A stretch of DNA of 64,000 nucleotides from a virus (Duplodnaviria > Caudoviricetes), in IMG/VR virus record IMGVR_UViG_3300011337_000669. One strand, 5' to 3'. Each line of letters starts with the position of its first letter. The first letter of the stretch is position 1. The translations under genes and the position numbers were made by a program. This document shows positions 41,975 through 55,752 of the stretch, one piece after another. The notes beneath the pieces were generated by a model. That model made no database searches, was not told the DNA's origin, and saw nothing but the letters and a program-made list of their open reading frames with translations.

Positions 41975-44308
41975 TTATTGTGAGACTTTTGAAATGTTGT
42001 CAATCTTGGTGATTCTGACCGTGTTATTTGCCCAATTATTTACTAAAGGGTTGTGGGTAATAACGAATATCTTTTCAAAATAGTCTTTCATCTTTGTAAA
42101 AAACTCGCCTACCATTTCCAAATTATCATTCGATATCTTTCCGAAGACCTCGTCCCAAACAATTACATTTGCCTTTGGTAAAGAACATACCTTAGACAAT
42201 ACGGCTCTCAATGCCATTGCCGCAATTGTTCGTTCGTAACCAGACCCTGAAACCATAAGTTTTTCAACACCAGTCGAGTTATCGATCATTATGAACTCAA
42301 CCTCATTCTTGTCATTGATTCGAATCTCCAAGTTAAAGTAAGCCGAATCCTGTAAAAGTCTTTGAAGTTCAGAATTAATTAGAGGAATCAAGGTCTTCAT
42401 AATCACTTTGGTGATTCCATTCTTACCGTATACTTCAACATAGATTTTATAAATCTTCTCTCTTTCGAACTCTTCAGCAATTTTCAAGATGAGGTCTTTA
42501 TTCTTTTCGATTCTTGATTCAATAGTTTCAATATGAGTTGAGTTTGTATTTTGAACTTTTTCGTAACCTCGTTTCTCATTAATCAATTCGTCAATACGTA
42601 ATCCCGCCTTTAACAACTGAGCATCAATCTCATTGTTCTTCTTGATTTTGTCTTGGACTTCCTCATATCTTTTGAGTTTATCTTTGACTTGTTCCAATTT
42701 GAGTTGAGTGGATTCCAAAGATAACTCATATTTTTCTTTTATGAGCTTGTTTCTCTCATATTCATCGAAGTCCTTCTTGAGTTGTGTAAAGGATTGTTCT
42801 TTCTTTTCGTACCCATCAATTTCTTCTTTAAAGTCTTGAACAAGTCTTTTGAATGAATCGAGTTGTTTAATTTTCTCGTTGGTCAATTTAGCTTCCATCA
42901 ACTTGATACCACAATGGTCACATTGAATTCCATCACCATACTTTTCAATAAGGTCTTGAATTTCCTCAACTTTATTCTCGCAAGTAACAAGTTCAGCGAA
43001 TCTTGATTTGATAACCTCTTTTACGTTATCATGTTTATCCTCATGATAAAATTCTTTGGGTTCAACTATCTTAATACTCTTGATGTCCTGTTCGGTCTTT
43101 TGTTTCGAGTCCTCTAAGTTGCTTATCGAAGATTGTAATAACAATGGATTCAAGGTAATGAGTTCTTTATCCAAATCAGTGAATTTGGATTTCAACAAAT
43201 TATCTTTATAATCCTGCCCCTTCTGAAGTCTTTTGTCGACATCTGAGATGTTTTTGGACATCTCGATAATCTCATCCTTCATTCGGATAATCTCCTCACC
43301 AGAGGTCTGATTATCCTGTTTAAGAGACTCTGTATTATACACATTAGAAATCATTCCTTTGGAGAATTCAGAATAAAGTTCTTTACCAGTCTCTTCCTTT
43401 TTCTTAAGGAATTCTAAGCCCAAGAATCGAGTTAATACCTGTCCACGAGCAGTTGGTTTTGCGTCCAACAAATCCTCAAGGTTGGATGCTGTTGTAACAA
43501 TGGTCATCAAAAAGTCTTCCATACTTCCGATGGATTTCTTCATGAAGTTTTCTGTCTCACGTCTTTGTTCACCAGTGAAGTTTTGAAGTTGACCATCAGC
43601 AAGTTTCTTGAAGAACTCAAGTTCGGTCTTAATATTCCATTCACCAGCCTTGGATTTCTTTCTTTCAATTTGACGAACAATCACATAGTCTTCACCATCG
43701 ATTGTGATGTCACCCTTAACACTAACTTTATTTACATCAGTAAACCTGTTGAAGATTTCTTCAGCCTTTTGAGTTTTGGTTGTCGTGTTAAAGAACAAAA
43801 ACAATAGAAGGTCAACGGTTAATACCGTCTTCCCTCCAAAGTTTGGTGGATCCGATTCAACTACAGTAATCCCATTACACTTATCAAAATCAATTACTTG
43901 GTTTTGTCCGTAAGATAAGAAGTTATCGAACTCAATTTTTTTGATGTACCATCTTTTGAATGGAGTAACCTCAACTTCGTTTGCCAACATTCTGTTTTCA
44001 ACCGCAAGGTCGATGTTCATTAGTCGGTCAAAATATTGTTCTTGACCTTTGGATTCCAAATATGTTTTTACCAACTCTGTCTGATAATTCTTATCCATGA
44101 TGTTCACTGAAACATCAATGGTCTGCATGGAGTCTTCATCCGATGTCTTCACTTTGGTGATTACATTAATGTTTGTTGAAGAATACTTTTTTATAAAGTA
44201 CTGCTTCACAGACTTAATTCTTTCCTGAGTAAAGTTTTCTGGTGAGTCTTCCCAAATCACCTGAATGTAAGGGTTTTCGAGTTGACTGATATCAAGTTTT
44301 GTTGCCAT
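41975..44308 (-). CDS. sbcC: SbcC/Rad50 (gp46-like) SMC ATPase
   Basis: IEFDNFLSY, Walker A PNFGGKT, coiled coils with CDHC Zn-hook, signature GSGYE, Walker B VWDE, FVITH; start moved to MATK at 44308. Confidence 0.92.
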   Translation of the reverse strand: MATKLDISQLENPYIQVIWEDSPENFTQERIKSVKQYFIKKYSSTNINVITKVKTSDEDSMQTIDVSVNIMDKNYQTELVKTYLESKGQEQYFDRLMNIDLAVENRMLANEVEVTPFKRWYIKKIEFDNFLSYGQNQVIDFDKCNGITVVESDPPNFGGKTVLTVDLLLFLFFNTTTKTQKAEEIFNRFTDVNKVSVKGDITIDGEDYVIVRQIERKKSKAGEWNIKTELEFFKKLADGQLQNFTGEQRRETENFMKKSIGSMEDFLMTIVTTASNLEDLLDAKPTARGQVLTRFLGLEFLKKKEETGKELYSEFSKGMISNVYNTESLKQDNQTSGEEIIRMKDEIIEMSKNISDVDKRLQKGQDYKDNLLKSKFTDLDKELITLNPLLLQSSISNLEDSKQKTEQDIKSIKIVEPKEFYHEDKHDNVKEVIKSRFAELVTCENKVEEIQDLIEKYGDGIQCDHCGIKLMEAKLTNEKIKQLDSFKRLVQDFKEEIDGYEKKEQSFTQLKKDFDEYERNKLIKEKYELSLESTQLKLEQVKDKLKRYEEVQDKIKKNNEIDAQLLKAGLRIDELINEKRGYEKVQNTNSTHIETIESRIEKNKDLILKIAEEFEREKIYKIYVEVYGKNGITKVIMKTLIPLINSELQRLLQDSAYFNLEIRINDKNEVEFIMIDNSTGVEKLMVSGSGYERTIAAMALRAVLSKVCSLPKANVIVWDEVFGKISNDNLEMVGEFFTKMKDYFEKIFVITHNPLVNNWANNTVRITKIDNISKVSQ

Positions 44309-44398
44309 ATTTTTGTAGTTAAAGGTAGGTATAGGATTGAATAAATCCCATGTTTGTACGTGTTGACCGTTGCGTTTCATAATCGAACCATAATAACA

Positions 44399-45217
44399 TT
44401 ATGAAATCGCTCTTCCTTTCATTTTTTCCCAATCTCTGTTTTTACGGATTTCATCATTTGTTTTTTGTGCCGCAATCAACACATTATCAGTTGTACTTAA
44501 CTGTGTGGTAAGGTAAATGAGTGCAGCCAAGTCTTTTGGAAAACAGTGTCCTCCGAATCCAAAATCACCATCAGGTCCAGGAACCCCCCAATGTGATTTA
44601 CCTAATCGATTATCCATTGTCGCGTATTCAACTACCTTATCGTAGTCAATTCCAAGTTTTCCACACAATTGATAAATTTCATTCGCGAACGATACTTTCA
44701 CTGACAGGAAAGTATTAGTTAAATACTTAACCATTTCAGCGTGAGTGGAATCAGTCTTGATTATATGAGAGTTAGGAAAAACTTTCGAAAAAATTTGTTT
44801 GAGTTCTGTTGTCGCAGGTCTTGGTCCCCCTAATATAATTCTATTTTGGTTCTCATAATCACTTACCGCATTTCTTTCGGTGAGAAATTCCGGATTAAAT
44901 ACAATTTGTAAATTCGGGTATAAAGAATTGATTCTTACTGTGGTTCCTGGAGAGACTGTGGATTTAATAACTACTATCTCACTTTTTCCGAAGTCAGAAA
45001 TATCTTTTATTGTATCCTCGACTAAGGTAGTATTACAATTACCATCTTGATTCATTGGTGTTGGTAAACACACGAATACAATTTTGCTTCCTATGGTGTC
45101 TATTTTTAATGAATTACACTTTGTAGAATCAAGGTCATAAGTGTTAACCTCATAATACTTTTTGAATTTTTGATAAACAGCGTTACCAACAAATCCTTGT
45201 CCAACAATTCCAATCAT
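44399..45217 (-). CDS. UDP-glucose/GDP-mannose dehydrogenase family protein
   Basis: GIVGQGFVG, FVCLPTP, IKST, FNPEFL, AEMVKYLTN, GFGGHCFPKD. Confidence 0.92.
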   Translation of the reverse strand: MIGIVGQGFVGNAVYQKFKKYYEVNTYDLDSTKCNSLKIDTIGSKIVFVCLPTPMNQDGNCNTTLVEDTIKDISDFGKSEIVVIKSTVSPGTTVRINSLYPNLQIVFNPEFLTERNAVSDYENQNRIILGGPRPATTELKQIFSKVFPNSHIIKTDSTHAEMVKYLTNTFLSVKVSFANEIYQLCGKLGIDYDKVVEYATMDNRLGKSHWGVPGPDGDFGFGGHCFPKDLAALIYLTTQLSTTDNVLIAAQKTNDEIRKNRDWEKMKGRAIS

Positions 45218-46065
45218 AAGTTTTGAATATAATTTTTCAATCTATCTTTAGGTTCCCAACCAAGTCTTTCTAACGTGTCATTGTTTTCTCTCAAGGTCAC
45301 TCTATAATTTCCTTTTTGTTCTGGTATGTGAAGTTTATCAACTCCGAATTTTTCTTGGAACATTTCATAAACTTGGTTAATCGAATAGTTAGTTCCTGTA
45401 CCTAATTCCCAAGCATCATCATGTTTTTCACCACTGATAGTTATTTTATATAATCCATCAATGATATCCTCAACGTGAGTAAAATCACGTCTTTGTTCTC
45501 CGTCACCAACAATGGTTATCGGTAACCCATCTCTAACCTGTCTTCTCCATATCCCGATTACGGCCGCCCAATCTCCATCAACAATTTCTTTCGGACCATA
45601 TACGTTGTAGAATCTCGTAATTTCTACTTCAACACCATAACACTTTTGATATAGTTTACACAATTCTTCTCCCAAATGTTTGAAACAAGCATATGGCGAT
45701 TGAAACGGATCATGCCATCTTGATGATGATCCCGAATAGATAACCTTAACATTGAATCGTCTTGCCCATTCCAAAACAAATTTAGTCCCAATTGTATTAA
45801 CTCTGAAAGTTTCATTCGGATTCTCGAAGGAAGGTTGAATTCTAGATAATGCTGCCAAATGATAGACTAAATCAAAGTCATTACCATCCAAATCTTCTAT
45901 AGACTCAATATCTCCCTTGAGGTAGGTACAACCTTCTATATGGTTGTCTTCAGTGCCACTATCGTAGTTGTCTAAAGAAAAAACTTCATGTCCTTCTTTC
46001 AATAACCTATCGATAAGATTAGAACCAATGAATCCCGCCCCACCCGTTACTAATACTTTCTTCAT
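45214..46065 (-). CDS. NAD-dependent sugar epimerase/dehydratase
   Basis: VTGGAGFIGS, HLAA, YACFK (YxxxK), RYF-like RFYNVYGP, RDFTHVED. Confidence 0.93.
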   Translation of the reverse strand: MKKVLVTGGAGFIGSNLIDRLLKEGHEVFSLDNYDSGTEDNHIEGCTYLKGDIESIEDLDGNDFDLVYHLAALSRIQPSFENPNETFRVNTIGTKFVLEWARRFNVKVIYSGSSSRWHDPFQSPYACFKHLGEELCKLYQKCYGVEVEITRFYNVYGPKEIVDGDWAAVIGIWRRQVRDGLPITIVGDGEQRRDFTHVEDIIDGLYKITISGEKHDDAWELGTGTNYSINQVYEMFQEKFGVDKLHIPEQKGNYRVTLRENNDTLERLGWEPKDRLKNYIQNL

Positions 46066-46253
46066 TATTTATCCGAGTTATCTGTTGATGATGAACCCTC
46101 TTCTTGTTTTTTCTTAAACTCTTCCATTTGAAGTTTCATTGTTTCATTGAAAAGTTTCTGAATTGCAGATTGCTGTGTCTTAATGTTTTGATTTCTGTTC
46201 TCAACTCTTTTTCTGTGAGCCTTATCTCCACCTCTTACTTTTGATTTTCCCAT
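46065..46253 (-). CDS. Small basic hypothetical protein
   Basis: MGKSKVRGGDKAHRKRV. Confidence 0.75.
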   Translation of the reverse strand: MGKSKVRGGDKAHRKRVENRNQNIKTQQSAIQKLFNETMKLQMEEFKKKQEEGSSSTDNSDK

Positions 46254-46888: not shown

Positions 46889-47242
46889 TTACTCTGATTT
46901 AGGTCGATTGACTTCGAACCATTCTATAATAGCGTTTATTGCCCACACAGATCCCGATGACAAAAATGCATCAAAAAACCAAGAAATCCAAATAGGTACG
47001 TCAAGAATATGGCTAACAGGTGAATAAATTGTTAATGCCAAAAACCAACCAGCGTGGAACCCGAAACACATCATGCAGGACATCATTTCGGTTAAAAACT
47101 TCCCTAAGTCACTAAAGACATAATATTCTTCCTCTCCCCATTTTCTAATCCAAGTTCTTGGTCTATTAAAAATACTTCCATAAACAACGATATTACTTAA
47201 ACCGTAAGCCAATATCATCCATAGTAATAATTGTGTAAACAT
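46889..47242 (-). CDS. Membrane protein with CxxC (DUF1360-like)
   Basis: Start moved to MFTQLLLW at 47242; MMSCMMCFGFHAGW; several TM helices. Confidence 0.7.
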   Translation of the reverse strand: MFTQLLLWMILAYGLSNIVVYGSIFNRPRTWIRKWGEEEYYVFSDLGKFLTEMMSCMMCFGFHAGWFLALTIYSPVSHILDVPIWISWFFDAFLSSGSVWAINAIIEWFEVNRPKSE

Positions 47243-47249
47243 ATTTTTT

Positions 47250-48149
47250 TTATTTATATAGTGTGTCGTCCAAATTTGAACCTTTGAGGAATGCCGCTTT
47301 CCTATCTTGTTGAAACTTTTGAATTTCTTGAATAGTTTTTTCGTATTCCATAATTTTTTTATCTTTCTCGATATTGTCAAGTTTAAGCTTTTGGACAGTA
47401 TTCTGAATTGCGTCCAATTTTGATTTCAATCCAATATCAGTACTTTCTTTTTCAATAACCACTTCCTTAATAATTTCCACAGGAACTTCTTTAATCACTT
47501 CAACTACTTTTTCGAGTGGTGGAGTTTGTCTAAGAATGTCTAAAGAATGTCTAAGTTCGTCTAATTCTTTATCCTTTTTAGACATTTCTTCTTGGAAAAT
47601 ATTTTCCATTTCTTGAGTCTTAGTGGAAAATATTTTGCGTTGTTCTTCGAATTCCTGTTCTTTTTGGAAAATTTTTGTGTTCATCTCTTCTTGGTCAGTA
47701 ACATAAACTACTTTCTCAACAGGAACCTCTTTGATGACATCCTTAATTACCACCTTCTCAACTGGTATTTCTTTGATAATCTCAACGACATTTTCAACAA
47801 CCCTTTCAACAGGAACTTCTTTAATAATTTCTACAACCTTTTCGACAGGTACTTCTTTGATGATTTCTTTGTAGACTATTTTCTCAACAGGTTTTTCTAC
47901 TTCAACATATTCAATCTTAACCACCTCTTTGATAACTTCAACTGGAATCTCCACCCGTTTTTCAACAATAACCTCCTTTTCCACCTGTTTTTCACGAGTT
48001 CCACCCACATTTAACAAACCATACCTTTCAATGTTAAATCCTTCAAGGTAAGATTTCTTAATCACCTCACTAATTCTAAAGTCATTCATATTACAATATG
48101 TAATGAGATCTTTGTTTTCAGTGGAAGAAAGGTTTAGTTTATATTCCAT
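47250..48149 (-). CDS. Protein with EVPVEK/V-E-K-rich repeats and coiled coil
   Basis: Repeated IKEVPVEKVV units; C-terminal coiled coil ending FLKGSNLDDTLYK. Confidence 0.85.
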   Translation of the reverse strand: MEYKLNLSSTENKDLITYCNMNDFRISEVIKKSYLEGFNIERYGLLNVGGTREKQVEKEVIVEKRVEIPVEVIKEVVKIEYVEVEKPVEKIVYKEIIKEVPVEKVVEIIKEVPVERVVENVVEIIKEIPVEKVVIKDVIKEVPVEKVVYVTDQEEMNTKIFQKEQEFEEQRKIFSTKTQEMENIFQEEMSKKDKELDELRHSLDILRQTPPLEKVVEVIKEVPVEIIKEVVIEKESTDIGLKSKLDAIQNTVQKLKLDNIEKDKKIMEYEKTIQEIQKFQQDRKAAFLKGSNLDDTLYK

Positions 48150-48374
48150 TTAGTAATTTACAAGTTTTTCGGTTCCCTCTGATAAAGAATCAATTGAGTT
48201 AATATAGAATTTCAAGAAAGGTTTTGGGTTTGGTAGGTTTATGAATGTATAATCATCTTTTTCAAGTTCATATACACCATACCCATGCTGACTAATATTT
48301 TCACCGAAGTTCTGTTGTATTGTTGAACCAACTTGAATTACAGGTATTTTTTTTCTTAATTTAACTTTTGCCAT
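48150..48374 (-). CDS. sbcD: SbcD/Mre11-like nuclease, C-terminal fragment
   Basis: VGSTIQQNFGE...HGYGVYEL is the segment that normally follows phosphoesterase motif V. Confidence 0.8.
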   Translation of the reverse strand: MAKVKLRKKIPVIQVGSTIQQNFGENISQHGYGVYELEKDDYTFINLPNPKPFLKFYINSIDSLSEGTEKLVNY

Positions 48375-49276
48375 ATTTCTTTCATTTTATTTATTACTTC
48401 TTCTTTTTTATTCTTCACATCACTACCCCAAAATCTAACTATTTCATACCCATTTTTAATCGCAAACTCTTCTTTTATTTTATCGTTCTCTTGAACTGAT
48501 TTTTGGAATTCACTTACCTCATTAAAAATATTTTTATTTCCGTGCCAATAATCACCATCAACTTCTATTAAAATATTACTATTGCATATTAAAAAATCAT
48601 ATTCTCTATACCAAAAGTTAATTTTATCTTTATCATAAATTCTAAATTTAACTTGGTAAGATATGTTTAACTCAATTAAAATATCTTCAAAAATTATTTC
48701 AATATCGGTTTTTTTACCAAAATGATGAGAATATTCCATTAACATATCTGTAGAACTTTTTCCATATAAATTAATTGTTGTTTTATCACATTTTCTATCA
48801 CCATACTTACCTGTCCAATTGTGACTAACACCATATCTTTCCATCATAGTTTCTTTCCTTTTTCTAATAGATTCATCATCCATTCCAGGGTAATAACCAT
48901 TTTTTTCAATAAACTTAGAAATACCTTCTTTTATTTTATCCGCATATTCTTTTGTTTGCCACAATTTTTTACTAATTTCAGACCTAAGTTTCCTTTCATC
49001 GTTACTAACTATCCTATCGAAACTTGGGTTAGTTGTCCCGGTATATAACATTTTTTGGTGAGCATCTTTACATTCCCTACAACAATATTTACTCTTTCCT
49101 TTTTTTAATTTATTCGGTAATGTATAAAATTCTGTTTCACAATATAAACAAGTTGTTTTTACTTTTTCTAATTTAGGTTTTCGGTAAGACTGATGTTGGC
49201 ATTCAACAGAACAATATTTTTGTTTCTTTTGTCTTGCATTGTAATTTTCATTACACATTTCACATATTTTCTCCAT
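48356..49276 (-). mobile_element. Free-standing endonuclease gene (Zn modules and DUF559/Vsr-like nuclease) inserted in sbcD
   Basis: Two CxxC...YCxxxC modules; C-terminal YDF...LIEVDGDYWHG...NDKIK...GYEIVRFW; own TATTTAT at 49297-49303. Confidence 0.85.
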
Positions 49277-49330
49277 AGTTTTATTGTATTATACTAATAA
49301 ATATCTACAATTCAACAAAAGTTTAGAGAA

Positions 49331-49975
49331 TTACACCTTTTCCCAACCTTTTTTTAGGTATTCTTCAACTTTACTTTCATCAACCTCAATAACAGAATCA
49401 GTGTATAATGTTTGCCTTAAATGTATATCACCGCATAAAACTATTTCAGTCCCATTAAATTTACTAATATCATACGAATCTTCACCAAACGAAAATCCTA
49501 AATCAGTTTTTAATCCATTTATCGGTCCGTGAAATAACCCAATATTAACATTATTGTTTTGCGGTATATCCGGTGGAATGTTGTGTTCCATCAAAGAATA
49601 TACACACCAATTAACGTTTTCATCCTCATAAACCCCACGGTTCTTATAATAAACTATGTTTGGATTTTTCAATGTGTCAATAATAGGGGTTAAAGTATCA
49701 AGTCTTTCTAAATTAGACTCGATCATATCATGATTTCCTATTATTATAATAGTTTTGGATATGTTTGCACACTCAGTAAGTATCCAAGCAACAAATTCCA
49801 CCAACTCAGGTGTCATCTGATTTTTGGAATGTACCAAGTCCCCCGTAAAAACTATTCTGTCAGGTTGTAAAGTTCTCCATTCTTTCAACGCAGACTCAAG
49901 GATTCCACGATATAAATCATGGTCCTTGAATAGTCTTACGTGTAAGTCAGAAAAATGAACTAGTCTGTTAATCAT
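49331..49975 (-). CDS. sbcD: SbcD/Mre11-like metallophosphoesterase, N-terminal fragment
   Basis: HFSDLH, TGDLVH, GNHD, LFHG and GDIH motifs I-V; start moved to MINRL at 49975. Confidence 0.9.
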   Translation of the reverse strand: MINRLVHFSDLHVRLFKDHDLYRGILESALKEWRTLQPDRIVFTGDLVHSKNQMTPELVEFVAWILTECANISKTIIIIGNHDMIESNLERLDTLTPIIDTLKNPNIVYYKNRGVYEDENVNWCVYSLMEHNIPPDIPQNNNVNIGLFHGPINGLKTDLGFSFGEDSYDISKFNGTEIVLCGDIHLRQTLYTDSVIEVDESKVEEYLKKGWEKV

Positions 49976-50201
49976 TAATGATAACTTTCGGTTCTTCAAA
50001 AGGATTGAATCCTTTGTTTATGTGTCCACAAGAATCACACTTGTAGATTGGAAATGGTACAGTTGTGTCTTCGGATGAACCAGTCATCAACTTTGGAACT
50101 AACTTCAGGTAAGTAACTTCTCTGAAATAAACTCCTCCACAATTATCACATTTGATTGTCGGTACGTCTCTTAAATTAATTTTAGGTTTTTCTAACTCCA
50201 T
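49968..50201 (-). CDS. Zn-ribbon protein
   Basis: CDNCGG...YKCDSCGH. Confidence 0.8.
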   Translation of the reverse strand: MELEKPKINLRDVPTIKCDNCGGVYFREVTYLKLVPKLMTGSSEDTTVPFPIYKCDSCGHINKGFNPFEEPKVIIND

Positions 50202-51066
50202 ATTTTGTTTTGTTTAATGATTCTATAAATGATTCTACTTTTGTTTGTGCCTTATTAATATAAGATAAATCCCCACCTTCATCAAGTCTAGACAAGTGTA
50301 ACTCGAACTTTGTAAAATCAAGTTTACTGATTGTGTTTACAAATGAGTTGACGAAGTCTTTGCTCAATTTAGCTTCTCTCGTCTTAAGGAAGTGATATCT
50401 AAAGGTTGTGAAGATTTGAAATAACTTTTCGATGTCCCATTCACTCGCAATTAAATGACTCTCATGAGCATACTTATCCTTCACATCATATATCTTAATA
50501 CTTTCGTTCAACCCTCCTTGAGCAAACTCAAGGTACAAAGCAACTTTCCTGTAGTTTTCATTCTTGGTTTCTGTTTTATCAATCAGGTATGCAAGAAATC
50601 CGTCTCGAGTGTAGTTCTTAAAAATTGATTCGTTGTTTTTAGTTGTAGTACACCATTTTGTGTTCGCTCCATACTTCATGGAACCTTTATGGGTTTTGGG
50701 TTGAAGTAAAATAAACTCTTCCGTCTCAAGGAGAACATTGATATGGTCTTCCTTTACGAAAGATTTTTCTTCTTTTGCTTGTTCCGCAATTTCAATGATA
50801 TCGATTAACTTTTGGTAATTGCCATAATATTCTTTGGAATAAATGTCTTTATTGTCGATGTATGGTAGCAACTCATTAAACTTAATGACATCTTTAATGA
50901 TACTACCAGTCGTTCTATAAGGTGCAAGAATTTTCCTATCCTCCCAAGTTTTCAACATATAGTCCAAATACTTTTTTGTTGGCGTGGTATCTGCTTCAAC
51001 AAATTTAGTGAAACTTGCTGGAGAAACCTGAGAATATTTCTTTTTCAAATCATCTACCTTTGACAT
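50182..51066 (-). CDS. Protein with 'YG...TKWCT' domain
   Basis: SMKYGANTKWCTT...FKNYTRDGFLAYLID; start probably ATG 51066. Confidence 0.8.
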   Translation of the reverse strand: MSKVDDLKKKYSQVSPASFTKFVEADTTPTKKYLDYMLKTWEDRKILAPYRTTGSIIKDVIKFNELLPYIDNKDIYSKEYYGNYQKLIDIIEIAEQAKEEKSFVKEDHINVLLETEEFILLQPKTHKGSMKYGANTKWCTTTKNNESIFKNYTRDGFLAYLIDKTETKNENYRKVALYLEFAQGGLNESIKIYDVKDKYAHESHLIASEWDIEKLFQIFTTFRYHFLKTREAKLSKDFVNSFVNTISKLDFTKFELHLSRLDEGGDLSYINKAQTKVESFIESLNKTKYGVRKT

Positions 51067-51145: not shown

Positions 51146-51986
51146 ATTTCTTTAGATACTTTTTCATATCCATTCTCATAATAATATCAATTACTTCTTG
51201 AGGGACTTTATACTCATCATAAGAAGAATCCTCCTTTAAGTGAGATATCACACATCCATACAACTTAAGATTCTCGTATTTGGTTCCCTGTAACATTTTT
51301 ACCAGTAACTTACCATAGAAAGGTAGTTGAAGGTAATAGTGGCCCAAAGCAGTATCAGGGTACTTACCGAATGGTTCTTTAAGTCTTTTAGTATAACTTG
51401 TTTCTTGGAAATTTTTTGGTTTGTTTGTTTTATAATCTGTTATGACAATCCCATATTCAGTTTTATCACGATTCATCATTAACCACACTTTATCGGGAGC
51501 TCCAGTATATCCCAATTCAGGATGTCCCAACACCATTTCCGTATCAAGTAATACTGCACCTCTTTCTTCCATTAAATTTAGGTATTTCTTACCCGCAACA
51601 ATCATATTATCACCCTTCATTATCTGTGTTAAATCACACTTGAACTCAGGTTGTCTGACCTCTTTATAATTCCCATTTCTCTTAATAAGTTCAGTTTCTA
51701 ACACAAAGTGAACACGACTTCCTATATTTGTAGAGTATTCACCTGCGGCCGCCCACTCTTCTATAAGTTCTTGTTGACGTTGAGGATTTCCACCCGCTTT
51801 ATTATACGCAGCCTCTTCGGTTGGAAACTCTGTATAGAATTTCTTTAATACTTTCGAAACGGATGGATAATCTGTCCTACCGTTCATTGTATATATGTGG
51901 TTTTCTTCTTCAAAAGAAAGTCCAAATTCAGTTTGTTTTTGGGTAATAATATCTCTTATTTCTTTTGTGATATTGTTTAAATTCAT
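51144..51986 (-). CDS. PD-(D/E)xK exonuclease
   Basis: GSRVH...TEMVL...GAPDKVW...ITDYKTNK...YYLQLPFY. Confidence 0.85.
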   Translation of the reverse strand: MNLNNITKEIRDIITQKQTEFGLSFEEENHIYTMNGRTDYPSVSKVLKKFYTEFPTEEAAYNKAGGNPQRQQELIEEWAAAGEYSTNIGSRVHFVLETELIKRNGNYKEVRQPEFKCDLTQIMKGDNMIVAGKKYLNLMEERGAVLLDTEMVLGHPELGYTGAPDKVWLMMNRDKTEYGIVITDYKTNKPKNFQETSYTKRLKEPFGKYPDTALGHYYLQLPFYGKLLVKMLQGTKYENLKLYGCVISHLKEDSSYDEYKVPQEVIDIIMRMDMKKYLKK

Positions 51987-52609
51987 ATTAATTTAGTTCC
52001 TTTTTTTAAGTTTTCTTCTCCCCATAATGGTTGAAGATTAGTATAATGACAAAGTTTATAAACATCTTCTTCTGTTTTTGCAGATGATAATGGTATAATA
52101 TGGTCAATATGCCAACCAAAAAATCCGTGATTATCCCAAGACATCCCAGTCTTAAATTGTTTTTCAATATGTTCTTTTAATTCTTTAGGATTACATCCAA
52201 CAATTTCAAACGTAGTATTTTTTTTAGTAATTTGTCTAGAATTCAAAAATAATTTCACTCTATTCTTCATGTTTGTTCTTAACCTAAAAATTTCATTTTC
52301 AGTATATTGTTTTTTAATTCTTTCATTTATTTTTATTCTATTTTTTTTACGATATTCTTTTTCTTTCTCTGAATTTTTTTTGTGTTTTTCCGCGGTTCTT
52401 TTTAATTCTTTATCATGATTATTCCAATAATTCTCTCGATGTCTTTTTCTTGTTTTTTCTAGGTTTATTATTTTATTATTATATTCGTTATAATAAACCC
52501 TTCTACAAACTTTACATCTATTCGAATATCCGTATTTTACACCGTTTCTTTTATCAAATTCACAAAGTTTTTTTTCAAGATTGCATTTTTTACAAATTTT
52601 TGTTTCCAT
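51983..52609 (-). CDS. HNH-type free-standing endonuclease (paralog 2 of 3)
   Basis: KICKKC...CKVC N-terminus; WHIDHIIPLSSAKTEEDVYKLCHYTNLQPLW. Confidence 0.85.
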   Translation of the reverse strand: METKICKKCNLEKKLCEFDKRNGVKYGYSNRCKVCRRVYYNEYNNKIINLEKTRKRHRENYWNNHDKELKRTAEKHKKNSEKEKEYRKKNRIKINERIKKQYTENEIFRLRTNMKNRVKLFLNSRQITKKNTTFEIVGCNPKELKEHIEKQFKTGMSWDNHGFFGWHIDHIIPLSSAKTEEDVYKLCHYTNLQPLWGEENLKKGTKLI

Positions 52610-52751
52610 TTTCCTTATGTGTTTCTAACAAATGGTTTATTAAAGATGATAAATTAACATGTAAACTCCTATAATAATCCAAAAGTTCTGGTTTCAATGC
52701 TATAGATATACTTTGTTTTTTATCTTCAGGTTTTTTCTTTACTCTTCCCAT
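52590..52751 (-). CDS. Small ribbon-helix-helix-like protein
   Basis: MGRVKKKPEDKKQSISIALKPELLDYYRSLHVNLSSLINHLL; start at 52751 behind TATTTAT at 52756-52762. Confidence 0.65.
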   Translation of the reverse strand: MGRVKKKPEDKKQSISIALKPELLDYYRSLHVNLSSLINHLLETHKENGNKNL

Positions 52752-52798
52752 AATAATAAATATCTCAGATGTGTCAAAAATTGTTATTTTTAACAATT

Positions 52799-54885: not shown

Positions 54886-55752
54886 TTACAATATTTTAGC
54901 ACCTTTCTTTATGTTATCAGATGCCCACATAGGTTGTAAATTAGTAAAATGGCATAATTTGTAAAGTTCTTCTTCGGTTTTTGCACTTGATAGTGGTATT
55001 ATATGGTCTATGTGCCAACCATAATAACCATAATTTTCCCAAACCATATCTTCTGTAAATTGTTTTTCTAAATGTTCTTTTAAAGAATCAGGAGAACAAC
55101 CTATAATGTCAAAAGTTTTACTATTTTTTCTTATGTTTTTTACCTTAAGATAAAAAAGTAATCTATTTCTAACATTATGTTTTAGTTTTTCTAATATTAC
55201 TGTATTTCTTTTTTCTTTAGTTTTTTTTGAATTTTTTTTAATTAACTCATTCTTATTCTTTTCATAATATTCTTTCCACCTCCTCTTTTCTGAATCTAAA
55301 TTATTTTCTCGATATTGCTTATTATAATCTTGTTTTTTTTCTATATTTTGGATATTTCTTTTTTTTGTACTTTCAAGAATAATTTCTTTATTTTTCTCAT
55401 AGTGCTCTTTTCTTTTTAATTTTCTTTCTTCTTTGGTCTCATCCAAATATTTTTTTATTTTTTCAAGATTATTCTTGTAATAATCCTTCATATAATTTTT
55501 AATCAAATCTTTTTTAGAGTCTCTATATTGTTTTTGTTTTTCTTGATTTTCTACGTAATAATCTTTTATTTTTTGAGAATTATTCTTCTTATATTCCCTC
55601 ATTTTTAAAAGGTTTTGTTCACGATTTTTGAAATATTTTTCTTTATCACATTCTTTACAAGAACAATGAAGTTTATCTTTAGTCTTATTATTTTTAGAAA
55701 AAAAACTTATGTCTTTGATGATTTTACATTTACTACATTTTTTTGTTCCCAT
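54886..55752 (-). CDS. HNH-type free-standing endonuclease (paralog 3 of 3)
   Basis: KKCSKC...CKEC; WHIDHIIPLSSAKTEEELYKLCHFTNLQPMW. Confidence 0.85.
   Translation of the reverse strand: MGTKKCSKCKIIKDISFFSKNNKTKDKLHCSCKECDKEKYFKNREQNLLKMREYKKNNSQKIKDYYVENQEKQKQYRDSKKDLIKNYMKDYYKNNLEKIKKYLDETKEERKLKRKEHYEKNKEIILESTKKRNIQNIEKKQDYNKQYRENNLDSEKRRWKEYYEKNKNELIKKNSKKTKEKRNTVILEKLKHNVRNRLLFYLKVKNIRKNSKTFDIIGCSPDSLKEHLEKQFTEDMVWENYGYYGWHIDHIIPLSSAKTEEELYKLCHFTNLQPMWASDNIKKGAKIL

What the first reader, a model, noticed from the sequence alone, without database searches (positions are those of the whole stretch)
48150..49975. sbcD/Mre11 nuclease gene split in two by a free-standing endonuclease, with new terminal extensions and no intron
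Seen: 49331..49975 contains phosphoesterase motifs I-V and ends GDIHLRQTLY-TDSVIEVDESKVEEYLKKGWEKV*. The continuation VGSTIQQNFGE...HGYGVYEL is in a separate ORF (48150..48374) starting MAKVKLRKKIPVIQ. Between them is a DUF559/Vsr-like endonuclease with its own TATTTAT promoter. Only 54 nt separate fragment 1 from the endonuclease, and the endonuclease stop overlaps the fragment 2 start, so a group I/II intron core cannot fit. The ends share similar sequence in different frames (TGGGAAAAGGT versus TGGCAAAAGTT). Established: Aeh1 nrdA split by mobE and T4 topoisomerase 39/60 split by mobA still yield functional multi-chain enzymes. Inference: a new case of a genes-in-pieces enzyme, in which the added ...IEVDESKVEEYLKKGW and MAKVKLRKK segments may fold together and staple the halves.
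Basis: partly seen in the sequence, partly recalled or inferred. Interest (0 to 1): 0.8.

Follow-up and report, generated by a model that had tools for sequence, protein, structure and literature searches.

The report
Endonuclease-split phage Mre11/SbcD nuclease gene
A freshwater giant phage encodes its Mre11/SbcD-type DNA-repair nuclease as two separate proteins with a selfish homing-endonuclease gene between them, held together by an acidic tail and a basic head; the case is real, but the same arrangement was reported in 2009.

Summary
On the minus strand, 49331..49975 (214 aa, phosphoesterase motifs I-V) and 48150..48374 (74 aa, the next part of the same fold) are two ORFs. A 306-aa DUF559/Vsr-like endonuclease ORF (48356..49276) lies between them. 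In 75 of 80 related phage loci the gene is one 259-aa ORF, and its model matches Mre11/SbcD best.

No intron or intein fits. Tail and head are under purifying selection (dN/dS about 0.23). Split alleles with only 0-27 nt between the halves exist. A complex prediction places the acidic tail strand against the basic head strand (ipSAE 0.95, best control 0.00).

Against its closest relative, the window has a divergent tract from about 49780 to 48150 inside 93-100% identical flanks. This fits import of the cassette by homing with co-conversion.

The extensions are not new. They are conserved in split homologs only 35-47% identical, persist after endonuclease loss, accompany a second nuclease type, and occur uninterrupted in a few intact homologs.

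Dassa et al. 2009 (PMC2677866) described a Lake Gatun SbcD-like locus with a Vsr-like ORF, a 25-residue tail and a 9-residue head. This scan has also found the arrangement on other DNA. It is therefore a well-documented new member of a known kind.

The parts
49331..49975 (-). Fragment 1 (214 aa): Mre11/SbcD-like phosphoesterase with motifs I-V. Residues 1-188 are core and 189-214 are the tail.
   Evidence: aligns to residues 1-190 of the intact 259-aa homologs
49334..49411 (-). Acidic C-terminal tail (26 aa, net charge -3): a strand, a helix and a G-W motif. It is absent from close intact relatives.
   Evidence: dN/dS 0.23; predicted contacts with the head
49277..49330 (-). 54-nt spacer with promoter-like elements (TATTTAT; TTGAAT-N16-TATAAT) upstream of the endonuclease gene
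48356..49276 (-). Free-standing homing-endonuclease gene (306 aa): N-terminal Cys-rich DNA-binding region and C-terminal DUF559/Vsr-like nuclease
   Evidence: 58-62% identical copies at the same site in L004, L039, L086, L088; dN/dS 0.25
48150..48374 (-). Fragment 2 (74 aa): a basic head (residues 1-14, net +5), then motif VI and the last strands of the phosphoesterase fold
48356..48374 (-). 19-nt overlap between the endonuclease 3' end and the fragment 2 start
   Evidence: the same overlap is reported for the 2009 SbcD-like locus and for Aeh1 nrdA
49335..49345 (-). Left copy of the border repeat (TGGGAAAAGGT), read W-E-K-V at the end of fragment 1
48363..48373 (-). Right copy of the border repeat (TGGCAAAAGTT), read W-Q-K-L at the end of the endonuclease ORF
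48150..49780 (-). Tract that is divergent or absent relative to the closest relative L005: about 360 nt of fragment 1, the 1089-nt cassette, and all of fragment 2. It is read as an imported (co-converted) tract.
41975..44380 (-). Rad50/SbcC-like ATPase (801 aa), the presumed partner. It is fused to the nuclease in most distant homologs.

Best explanation
The phage's Mre11/SbcD-like nuclease is made as two polypeptides that reassemble without covalent joining. The break lies in the turn of the beta-hairpin between phosphoesterase motifs V and VI. Fragment 1 carries all the metal-binding motifs. Fragment 2 supplies core strands that pair with strand 1 of fragment 1. An acidic 26-residue tail on fragment 1 and a basic 14-residue head on fragment 2 extend the hairpin into a longer two-stranded zipper capped by the tail's helix and its Trp. 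The unit tail - promoter - endonuclease gene - head behaves as one mobile cassette. In this genome it replaced 46 nt of an intact allele. This most likely happened by endonuclease-triggered double-strand-break repair that also copied about 360 nt of left and about 180 nt of right flanking exon sequence from a divergent donor.

Shown here: the anatomy, the intact relatives, the selection on the tail and head, the recombinant tract, and the existence of alleles without the endonuclease.

Inferred: expression of both chains, their assembly and activity, cleavage of the intact allele by the endonuclease, and the direction of the historical events.
For: The gene is intact (259 aa) in 75 of 80 related loci. 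The break maps between residues 190 and 201 of the intact protein. The AF2 model of the intact homolog (pLDDT 94.9) places that stretch at the hairpin formed by strands 186-191 and 195-200. The top 44 PDB matches are all Mre11/SbcD, with E down to 3e-11.

Pooled dN/dS is 0.23 for the tail, 0.24 for head codons 7-14, and 0.19 for the adjacent core. About 50 protein clusters of fragment 2 at 60-100% identity are all 74-75 aa long and keep the head motif.

Complex prediction (ESMFold2): ipSAE 0.95, best control 0.00. That mark was reached by 51 of 78 solved complexes and 2 of 108 mismatched pairs. The runs share at least 96% of contacts and the partner's pLDDT is at least 81. Tail residues 189-196 touch head residues 6-12, W211 touches L6, and fragment 1 residues 4-8 touch fragment 2 residues 32-37. 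Because these are halves of one fold, the pass may partly reflect likeness to solved single-chain Mre11.

Tails carry net charge -3 to -6. Heads carry +4 to +7, with one exception at +1.

Against L005, the flanks are 93-100% identical in nucleotides, but 49780..49422 and 48332..48153 are only 58-85% identical.

Split alleles sit in at least 2-3 backgrounds of the junction-proximal tree and are scattered in the wide family tree. The endonuclease ORF is intact at 306 aa in five alleles, with dN/dS 0.25.

Against: There are no protein or activity data. The RNA data are too thin to use: two RNA-library runs gave only short contigs, one crossing the endonuclease/fragment 2 border unspliced, and DNA carry-over cannot be excluded.

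The complex score for two halves of a known fold can come from memory of single-chain structures.

No donor allele for the imported tract was found. The nearest, L084, is 76% identical over the junction-proximal protein and carries a different nuclease.

The dN/dS values pool non-independent pairs, and synonymous sites are near saturation.
Confidence: 0.78

Rival explanations
1. The split is older than the endonuclease and independent of it. The gene, or an insert-bearing variant of it, had already become two cistrons. Endonuclease genes of two kinds later settled in the gap, as free-standing homing endonucleases often do between conserved genes. Under this reading the two-chain enzyme works as described, but the endonuclease did not create the break.
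For: Split alleles without an endonuclease exist in three lineages. L082/L083 have a 27-nt gap, and that fragment 2 protein is indexed in 186 blocks of the collection. L092 has a 173-nt gap. L094 has overlapping stop and start (TAATG). Two different nuclease domains, DUF559/Vsr-like and TnsA-like, occupy the same gap. The tail plus head exists as one uninterrupted insert in intact homologs. The same question was raised for gene 43 of Aeromonas phages 25 and 44RR (PMC2988022).
Against: L082, which lacks an endonuclease, is nested among endonuclease-bearing alleles (98/83 support), which points to secondary loss. The window's closest genomic background is intact, and the whole cassette arrived together with the endonuclease. 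L090 shows an endonuclease ORF broken in frame, which looks like a decay stage.
Confidence: 0.25
2. The gene was inactivated by the insertion, and the two ORFs are decaying remnants with no function.
For: No expression or activity data exist. Many phages tolerate loss of accessory repair genes.
Against: Both fragments, including the tail and head, show pN far below pS across alleles whose synonymous sites are nearly saturated. Fragment 2 keeps exactly 74 aa in about 50 clusters. The split persists in abundant lineages after endonuclease loss. All metal-ligand residues are retained.
Confidence: 0.05
3. One polypeptide is restored by RNA splicing (group I or II intron), by protein splicing (split intein), or by ribosomal bypassing or frameshifting.
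For: Vsr-like endonucleases also occur in group I introns and between split-intein halves (PMC2677866). T4 gene 60 combines a mobile endonuclease with a translational bypass.
Against: No intron family matched at E up to 10. Only about 128 nt lie 5' of the endonuclease ORF and about 23 nt lie 3' of it within the insert, and most of that sequence evolves as protein-coding sequence. Alleles with 0-27 nt between the stop and the start cannot hold an intron. Tail plus head total 40 aa, far below a Hint domain. No joint skipping the insert was seen in RNA or DNA contigs, though coverage was low. A 956-nt gap holding an expressed ORF is implausible for bypassing.
Confidence: 0.03

Closest known systems
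[quoted passage not shown]
   Same: Both have two ORFs matching the N- and C-terminal halves of an SbcD-like exonuclease, a Vsr-like endonuclease ORF between them and no intein. The published locus has a 25-residue C-terminal and a 9-residue N-terminal extra segment that were not found in intact SbcD-like proteins. Its endonuclease 3' end overlaps the downstream ORF. It comes from freshwater and is probably phage. These figures match the window almost residue for residue.
   Different: The published case is a single metagenomic locus with no flanks and no analysis of the extra segments. Its sequence could not be compared because no supplement text is held. This work adds the full genomic context, intact relatives, the imported tract, alleles without an endonuclease, a second nuclease type, uninterrupted-insert homologs, selection estimates and a predicted interface.
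Aeromonas phage Aeh1 nrdA-a / mobE / nrdA-b (Friedrich et al. 2007; Crona et al. 2011, PMC3045599)
   Same: A free-standing endonuclease lies inside an essential DNA-metabolism gene, at a turn between two adjacent beta-strands. The endonuclease 3' end overlaps the downstream fragment. Oppositely charged tails are absent from intact homologs. No RNA or protein splicing occurs.
   Different: MobE is an HNH enzyme and the target is ribonucleotide reductase. The charge polarity is reversed there: the C-tail is basic and the N-tail is acidic. In Aeh1 the tails are needed for dimerisation of heterodimers, not for pairing of the fragments. In Aeh1 the function is shown by biochemistry. Here it is only predicted.
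T4 topoisomerase genes 39 and 60 with mobA; Aeromonas phage 25 gene 43A/43B with a seg gene and phage 44RR with an endonuclease-free spacer (PMC2988022)
   Same: A phage replication or repair enzyme is encoded in two cistrons with a free-standing endonuclease in or beside the gap. A related phage keeps the split without the endonuclease.
   Different: The enzymes and endonuclease families differ. T4 gene 60 adds a translational bypass. No conserved portable tail/head pair has been described for those cases.
Fractured genes with split inteins and a free-standing endonuclease (Dassa et al. 2009)
   Same: The order of parts is the same (N-half, endonuclease, C-half). The Vsr-like endonuclease family is the same. 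In both, charge-complementary strands are proposed to bring the halves together.
   Different: No Hint domain is present here. The added segments are 26 and 14 aa, so no protein splicing is possible and the halves must stay non-covalent.

Membership tests
Mre11/SbcD nuclease (calcineurin-like phosphoesterase) | Phosphoesterase motifs I-V with their metal ligands | tested here: met
   Pfam Metallophos E 2e-11. D10, H12, D46, N81, H82, H149 and H184 are invariant in 36 homologs. Motif V reads G-D-I-H rather than G-H-x-H.
Mre11/SbcD nuclease (calcineurin-like phosphoesterase) | Fold closest to solved Mre11/SbcD structures | tested here: met
   The intact homolog was modelled at pLDDT 94.9. PDB ranks 1-44 are all Mre11/SbcD, with E from 3e-11 to 7e-9 and TM 0.60-0.71. 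By sequence alone the match is weak: E 0.002 to T. maritima Mre11.
Mre11/SbcD nuclease (calcineurin-like phosphoesterase) | C-terminal capping domain and Rad50-binding helices on the nuclease chain | tested here: not met
   The intact protein has only 259 aa and ends about 57 residues after motif VI. The equivalent region of the fused homologs continues into the ATPase chain.
Mre11/SbcD nuclease (calcineurin-like phosphoesterase) | Paired with a Rad50/SbcC-type ATPase | tested here: met
   An 801-aa ORF at 41975..44380 matches NCBIfam Rad50 at E 2.6e-10, below the curated cut-off. It is 30% identical over 844 columns to the C-terminal part of fused homolog P0006. Most homologs are fusions of about 1050 aa.
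Genes-in-pieces made by a free-standing homing endonuclease, with tails (Aeh1 nrdA type; 2009 SbcD-like locus) | The gene is uninterrupted in close relatives | tested here: met
   75 of 80 loci have one 259-aa ORF.
Genes-in-pieces made by a free-standing homing endonuclease, with tails (Aeh1 nrdA type; 2009 SbcD-like locus) | An endonuclease ORF with its own start and stop lies between the halves, and no intron or intein is present | tested here: met
   alleles with a 0-27 nt gap
Genes-in-pieces made by a free-standing homing endonuclease, with tails (Aeh1 nrdA type; 2009 SbcD-like locus) | Extra tail and head segments are absent from intact homologs | tested here: inconclusive
   They are absent from all close intact relatives. 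They are present as one uninterrupted insert in a few distant intact homologs: P0143, P0032, P0069, P0148.
Genes-in-pieces made by a free-standing homing endonuclease, with tails (Aeh1 nrdA type; 2009 SbcD-like locus) | Both chains are made and assemble into an active enzyme | not testable with these tools
   Only a prediction is available: ipSAE 0.95 against a best control of 0.00, plus purifying selection.
Vsr-like / DUF559 homing endonuclease | Sequence match to DUF559/Vsr with the conserved core motif | tested here: met
   DUF559 scores 21.4 bits against a cut-off of 20.6. The Vsr model gives E 5.7e-4, below its cut-off. The I-E-V-D-G-D-Y-W-H-G core is conserved in five alleles. The match is marginal in score.
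Vsr-like / DUF559 homing endonuclease | Presence/absence polymorphism at one conserved site with co-converted flanks | tested here: met
Vsr-like / DUF559 homing endonuclease | Site-specific cleavage of the empty allele | not testable with these tools
   Requires an enzyme assay.
Group I/II intron or split intein | Ribozyme core, or Hint-domain halves flanking the endonuclease | tested here: not met
   No Rfam match at E up to 10. The tail is 26 aa and the head 14 aa, and both evolve as protein-coding sequence. The split is kept with no spacer in L094.

The most novel reading that the evidence does not exclude
The acidic tail and basic head are the two halves of one small portable clasp domain that travels with homing-endonuclease genes between very divergent phage Mre11/SbcD genes. 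The clasp neutralises the break without RNA or protein splicing and stays behind when the endonuclease is lost. It can then be re-fused into a permanent insert of the host protein, as in P0143, P0032, P0069 and P0148. On this reading, endonuclease cassettes would be a source of new protein inserts.
Probability: 0.3. Interest if true: 0.6.

Novelty: new member of a known kind. Interest (0 to 1): 0.4.

Why it matters
This is a third way for a selfish element to sit inside an important gene without destroying it: non-covalent reassembly, beside introns and inteins. Only one case, Aeh1 NrdA, has been studied biochemically. This phage family offers a natural series in one gene: empty site, occupied site with two nuclease types, a broken endonuclease, a split kept after endonuclease loss, and an uninterrupted insert. 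With that series, the origin and necessity of the clasp can be tested directly.

The target is also notable. In T4, the Mre11/Rad50-type nuclease (gp46/gp47) is among the functions thought to process the breaks that homing depends on (PMC2988022). An endonuclease that disabled this gene might therefore harm its own spread. That last point is inference.

Tried and rejected
1. Group I/II intron: the Rfam scan of 47900..50200 at E up to 10 found only chance snoRNA and miRNA matches.

2. Tail as a remnant of a degenerate DUF559 nuclease. By eye, I-E-V-D and L-x-x-G-W-x-V resemble the nuclease core motifs. hhalign of 16 tails against the endonuclease alignment gave probability 0.1% over 3 columns. 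This is not supported, though the segment is too short for the test to have power.

3. Pfam on the uninterrupted inserts of P0032, P0148, P0069 and P0143: nothing.

4. Regenerating one ORF by a simple crossover between the two border repeats: it does not work. The repeat is in the same frame for fragment 1 and the endonuclease, so a crossover ends at the endonuclease stop. An in-frame fusion to fragment 2 would need one extra base.

5. Single-sequence AF2 model of P0032 residues 1-300: pLDDT 45, unusable.

6. Nucleotide search of the phage collection with 47000..51000: no match. A single-protein scan with the endonuclease found one weak locus.

7. No whole genome is held for this window.

8. 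Reads. One metatranscriptome contig (288 nt) lies inside the endonuclease ORF. Contigs from a run guessed to be RNA cross the endonuclease/fragment 2 border and the endonuclease start. No joint skips the insert. Coverage is too low, and DNA carry-over too likely, to count for or against splicing or expression.

9. Supplementary Figure S2 of Dassa et al. could not be read, so the published tail sequence was not compared.

10. The endonuclease of L090 is 60% identical to that of L084, while their host genes are 47% identical. This is suggestive of transfer but not decisive.

Full report
ANATOMY. All features are on the minus strand.
- Fragment 1 (f1) is 49331..49975, 214 aa.
- A 54-nt spacer follows.
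- The endonuclease ORF is 48356..49276, 306 aa.
- Fragment 2 (f2) is 48150..48374, 74 aa. Its ATG lies 19 nt inside the end of the endonuclease ORF.

f1 matches Pfam Metallophos (E 2e-11) and the PHROG 'SbcD-like' profile at positions 29-223. f2 matches the same profile at positions 227-277. The middle ORF matches DUF559 at threshold, DUF7487, phrog_559 and, weakly, the Vsr model.

WHAT THE GENE IS. A scan of viral contigs found 469 relatives. Of the 80 kept, 75 carry one uninterrupted 259-aa ORF. These contigs reach about 320 kb and come from freshwater samples. An AlphaFold2 model of the intact protein (pLDDT 94.9) matches Mre11/SbcD structures at PDB ranks 1-44, with E down to 3e-11. Sequence similarity alone is weak.

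Most distant homologs are single chains of about 1050 aa that fuse this nuclease to a Rad50/SbcC-like ATPase. In the window the ATPase is a separate 801-aa ORF at 41975..44380. The nuclease chain lacks the capping and Rad50-binding parts of canonical Mre11. It works like Mre11/SbcD and is the closest fold, but it is a divergent, shortened member.

WHERE THE BREAK IS. Intact proteins have 12 residues between the R-Q that follows motif V and the V-G-S of motif VI. In the model these form the hairpin of strands 186-191 and 195-200. In the window, 46 nt of the intact allele are replaced by 1089 nt. That insert comprises a 26-residue tail on f1, the spacer, the endonuclease gene and a 14-residue head on f2.

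NO SPLICING.
- Rfam finds no intron.
- The tail and head evolve as protein. Pooled over eight split alleles, dN/dS is 0.23 for the tail and 0.24 for head codons 7-14, against 0.19 for the adjacent core.
- Split alleles exist with 27 nt (L082/L083), 173 nt (L092) or no spacer at all (L094, where stop and start overlap as TAATG) between the halves.
- Forty added residues cannot form an intein.
- The few RNA-library contigs are unspliced but too sparse to count.

ASSEMBLY. The complex test gave ipSAE 0.95 with a best control of 0.00. That mark was reached by 51 of 78 solved complexes and 2 of 108 mismatched pairs. The three runs share at least 96% of their contacts, and the partner's pLDDT is at least 81. 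Tail residues 189-196 lie against head residues 6-12, W211 lies against L6, and f2 residues 32-37 pair with strand 1 of f1. Because these are two halves of a fold with many solved single-chain structures, the pass may partly be memory. It supports binding but does not show it. Tails are acidic (-3 to -6) and heads are basic (+4 to +7, with one exception at +1).

MOBILITY. The closest genome (L005) is 93-100% identical in nucleotides on both sides. From about 49780 to the insert, and from the insert to the end of f2 (48153), identity falls to 58-85%. This is the pattern expected from import of the cassette with co-conversion of flanking exon sequence.

In a tree of the junction-proximal protein, split alleles fall in at least two to three backgrounds. 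The endonuclease-free L082 is nested among endonuclease-bearing alleles. In the wide family tree, split alleles are scattered, several as well-supported sisters of intact ones.

The DUF559-type endonuclease is intact at 306 aa in five alleles, with dN/dS 0.25. A second type shares the N-terminal Cys-rich region but carries a TnsA-like nuclease domain. It occupies the same gap in L001, L084 and L090. In L090 it is broken in frame.

The spacer upstream of the endonuclease is conserved and carries TATTTAT, a motif found upstream of 14 of 73 long ORFs against about 1 expected. The standard sigma-70 scan is not enriched over shuffles.

THE EXTENSIONS ARE NOT NEW. The tail consensus is I-E-I-D-E-x-x-L-E-x-Y-L-K-x-G-W. 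It recurs at the C-terminus of 13 of the roughly 125 representative homologs that carry motif V, at 35-47% identity to f1. The matching head recurs on their downstream ORFs. Several intact homologs carry tail and head as one uninterrupted insert of 43-53 residues: P0143, P0032, P0069 and P0148.

Which state came first cannot be settled here. Either an insert-bearing allele was bisected, or a split allele was later re-fused.

A short repeat (TGG-G/C-AAAAG) marks both cassette borders in all seven alleles of this phage family. It is in frame with the end of f1 and with the end of the endonuclease ORF. A simple crossover between the copies would not restore one ORF. The repeat's meaning is unexplained.

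PRIOR KNOWLEDGE.
- Dassa et al. [quoted passage not shown] It has 25 extra C-terminal and 9 extra N-terminal residues and the same ORF overlap. This is essentially the same arrangement.
- Crona et al. 2011 (PMC3045599) showed that comparable tails are essential in the Aeh1 NrdA split. They predicted that such tails would be found elsewhere.
- Earlier reports of this scan describe the same split on other DNA and pointed me to the 2009 paper, which I then read myself.

VERDICT. The finding is real, and the mechanistic reading (a two-chain enzyme held by a tail/head clasp) is the best supported. It is a new member of a known kind. Its value lies in the natural series of states, not in a new mechanism.

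Noticed in passing
window 54886..55752 (-) and 51983..52609 (-): Two further endonuclease-like ORFs (288 and 208 aa, both phrog_1035 'endonuclease VII'/HNH-like) lie in the same replication/repair cluster. Both are absent from the closest relative L005, where the gaps fall at 54892-55742 and 51915-52796. Together with the DUF559 gene, that makes three presence/absence endonuclease genes within 8 kb.
   Followed up: partly
window 44399..46065 (-): A UDP-glucose/GDP-mannose dehydrogenase-like gene (272 aa) and an NAD-dependent epimerase/dehydratase gene (283 aa) sit between the nuclease cluster and the ATPase gene. They are absent from L005, where the gap falls at 44351-46100.
   Followed up: partly
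window 44270..44380 (-), N-terminus of the 801-aa ATPase: The first ~35 residues of the ATPase align to the same segment of fused homolog P0006 (about 215-250) as the C-terminal part of fragment 2. The older nuclease/ATPase fission therefore left an overlapping, degenerate duplicate of that segment. About 145 residues precede the ATPase start motif.
   Followed up: partly
window 47250..48149 (-): The 299-aa protein rich in E-V-P-V-E-K-type repeats, directly downstream of fragment 2, varies strongly in repeat content among relatives. It is 96% identical in L005 but only 33-69% identical, with internal rearrangements, in others.
   Followed up: no
L090 4205..4896: The TnsA-like endonuclease between the halves of a 47%-identical split homolog is broken into two frames at a T-run. 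It is either a decaying endonuclease gene or an assembly error.
   Followed up: no
window, whole: TATTTAT lies within 45 nt upstream of 14 of 73 ORFs of at least 100 aa, against about 1 expected from its overall density. No Shine-Dalgarno-like sequences precede the genes examined. The nearest cultured-phage hits are Tenacibaculum phages. Together these hint at a Bacteroidota host.
   Followed up: partly
P0042 (284 aa): One distant split homolog continues about 50 residues past the G-[WY] end of the tail into unrelated sequence. This may be read-through into a spacer or a different cassette.
   Followed up: no
window 49335..49345 and 48363..48373: An 11-nt border repeat is conserved at both cassette borders in all seven family alleles, including the endonuclease-free L083. 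It is in frame with the end of fragment 1 and the end of the endonuclease ORF. Its origin is unexplained; it could be a target duplication or a shared ORF end.
   Followed up: partly
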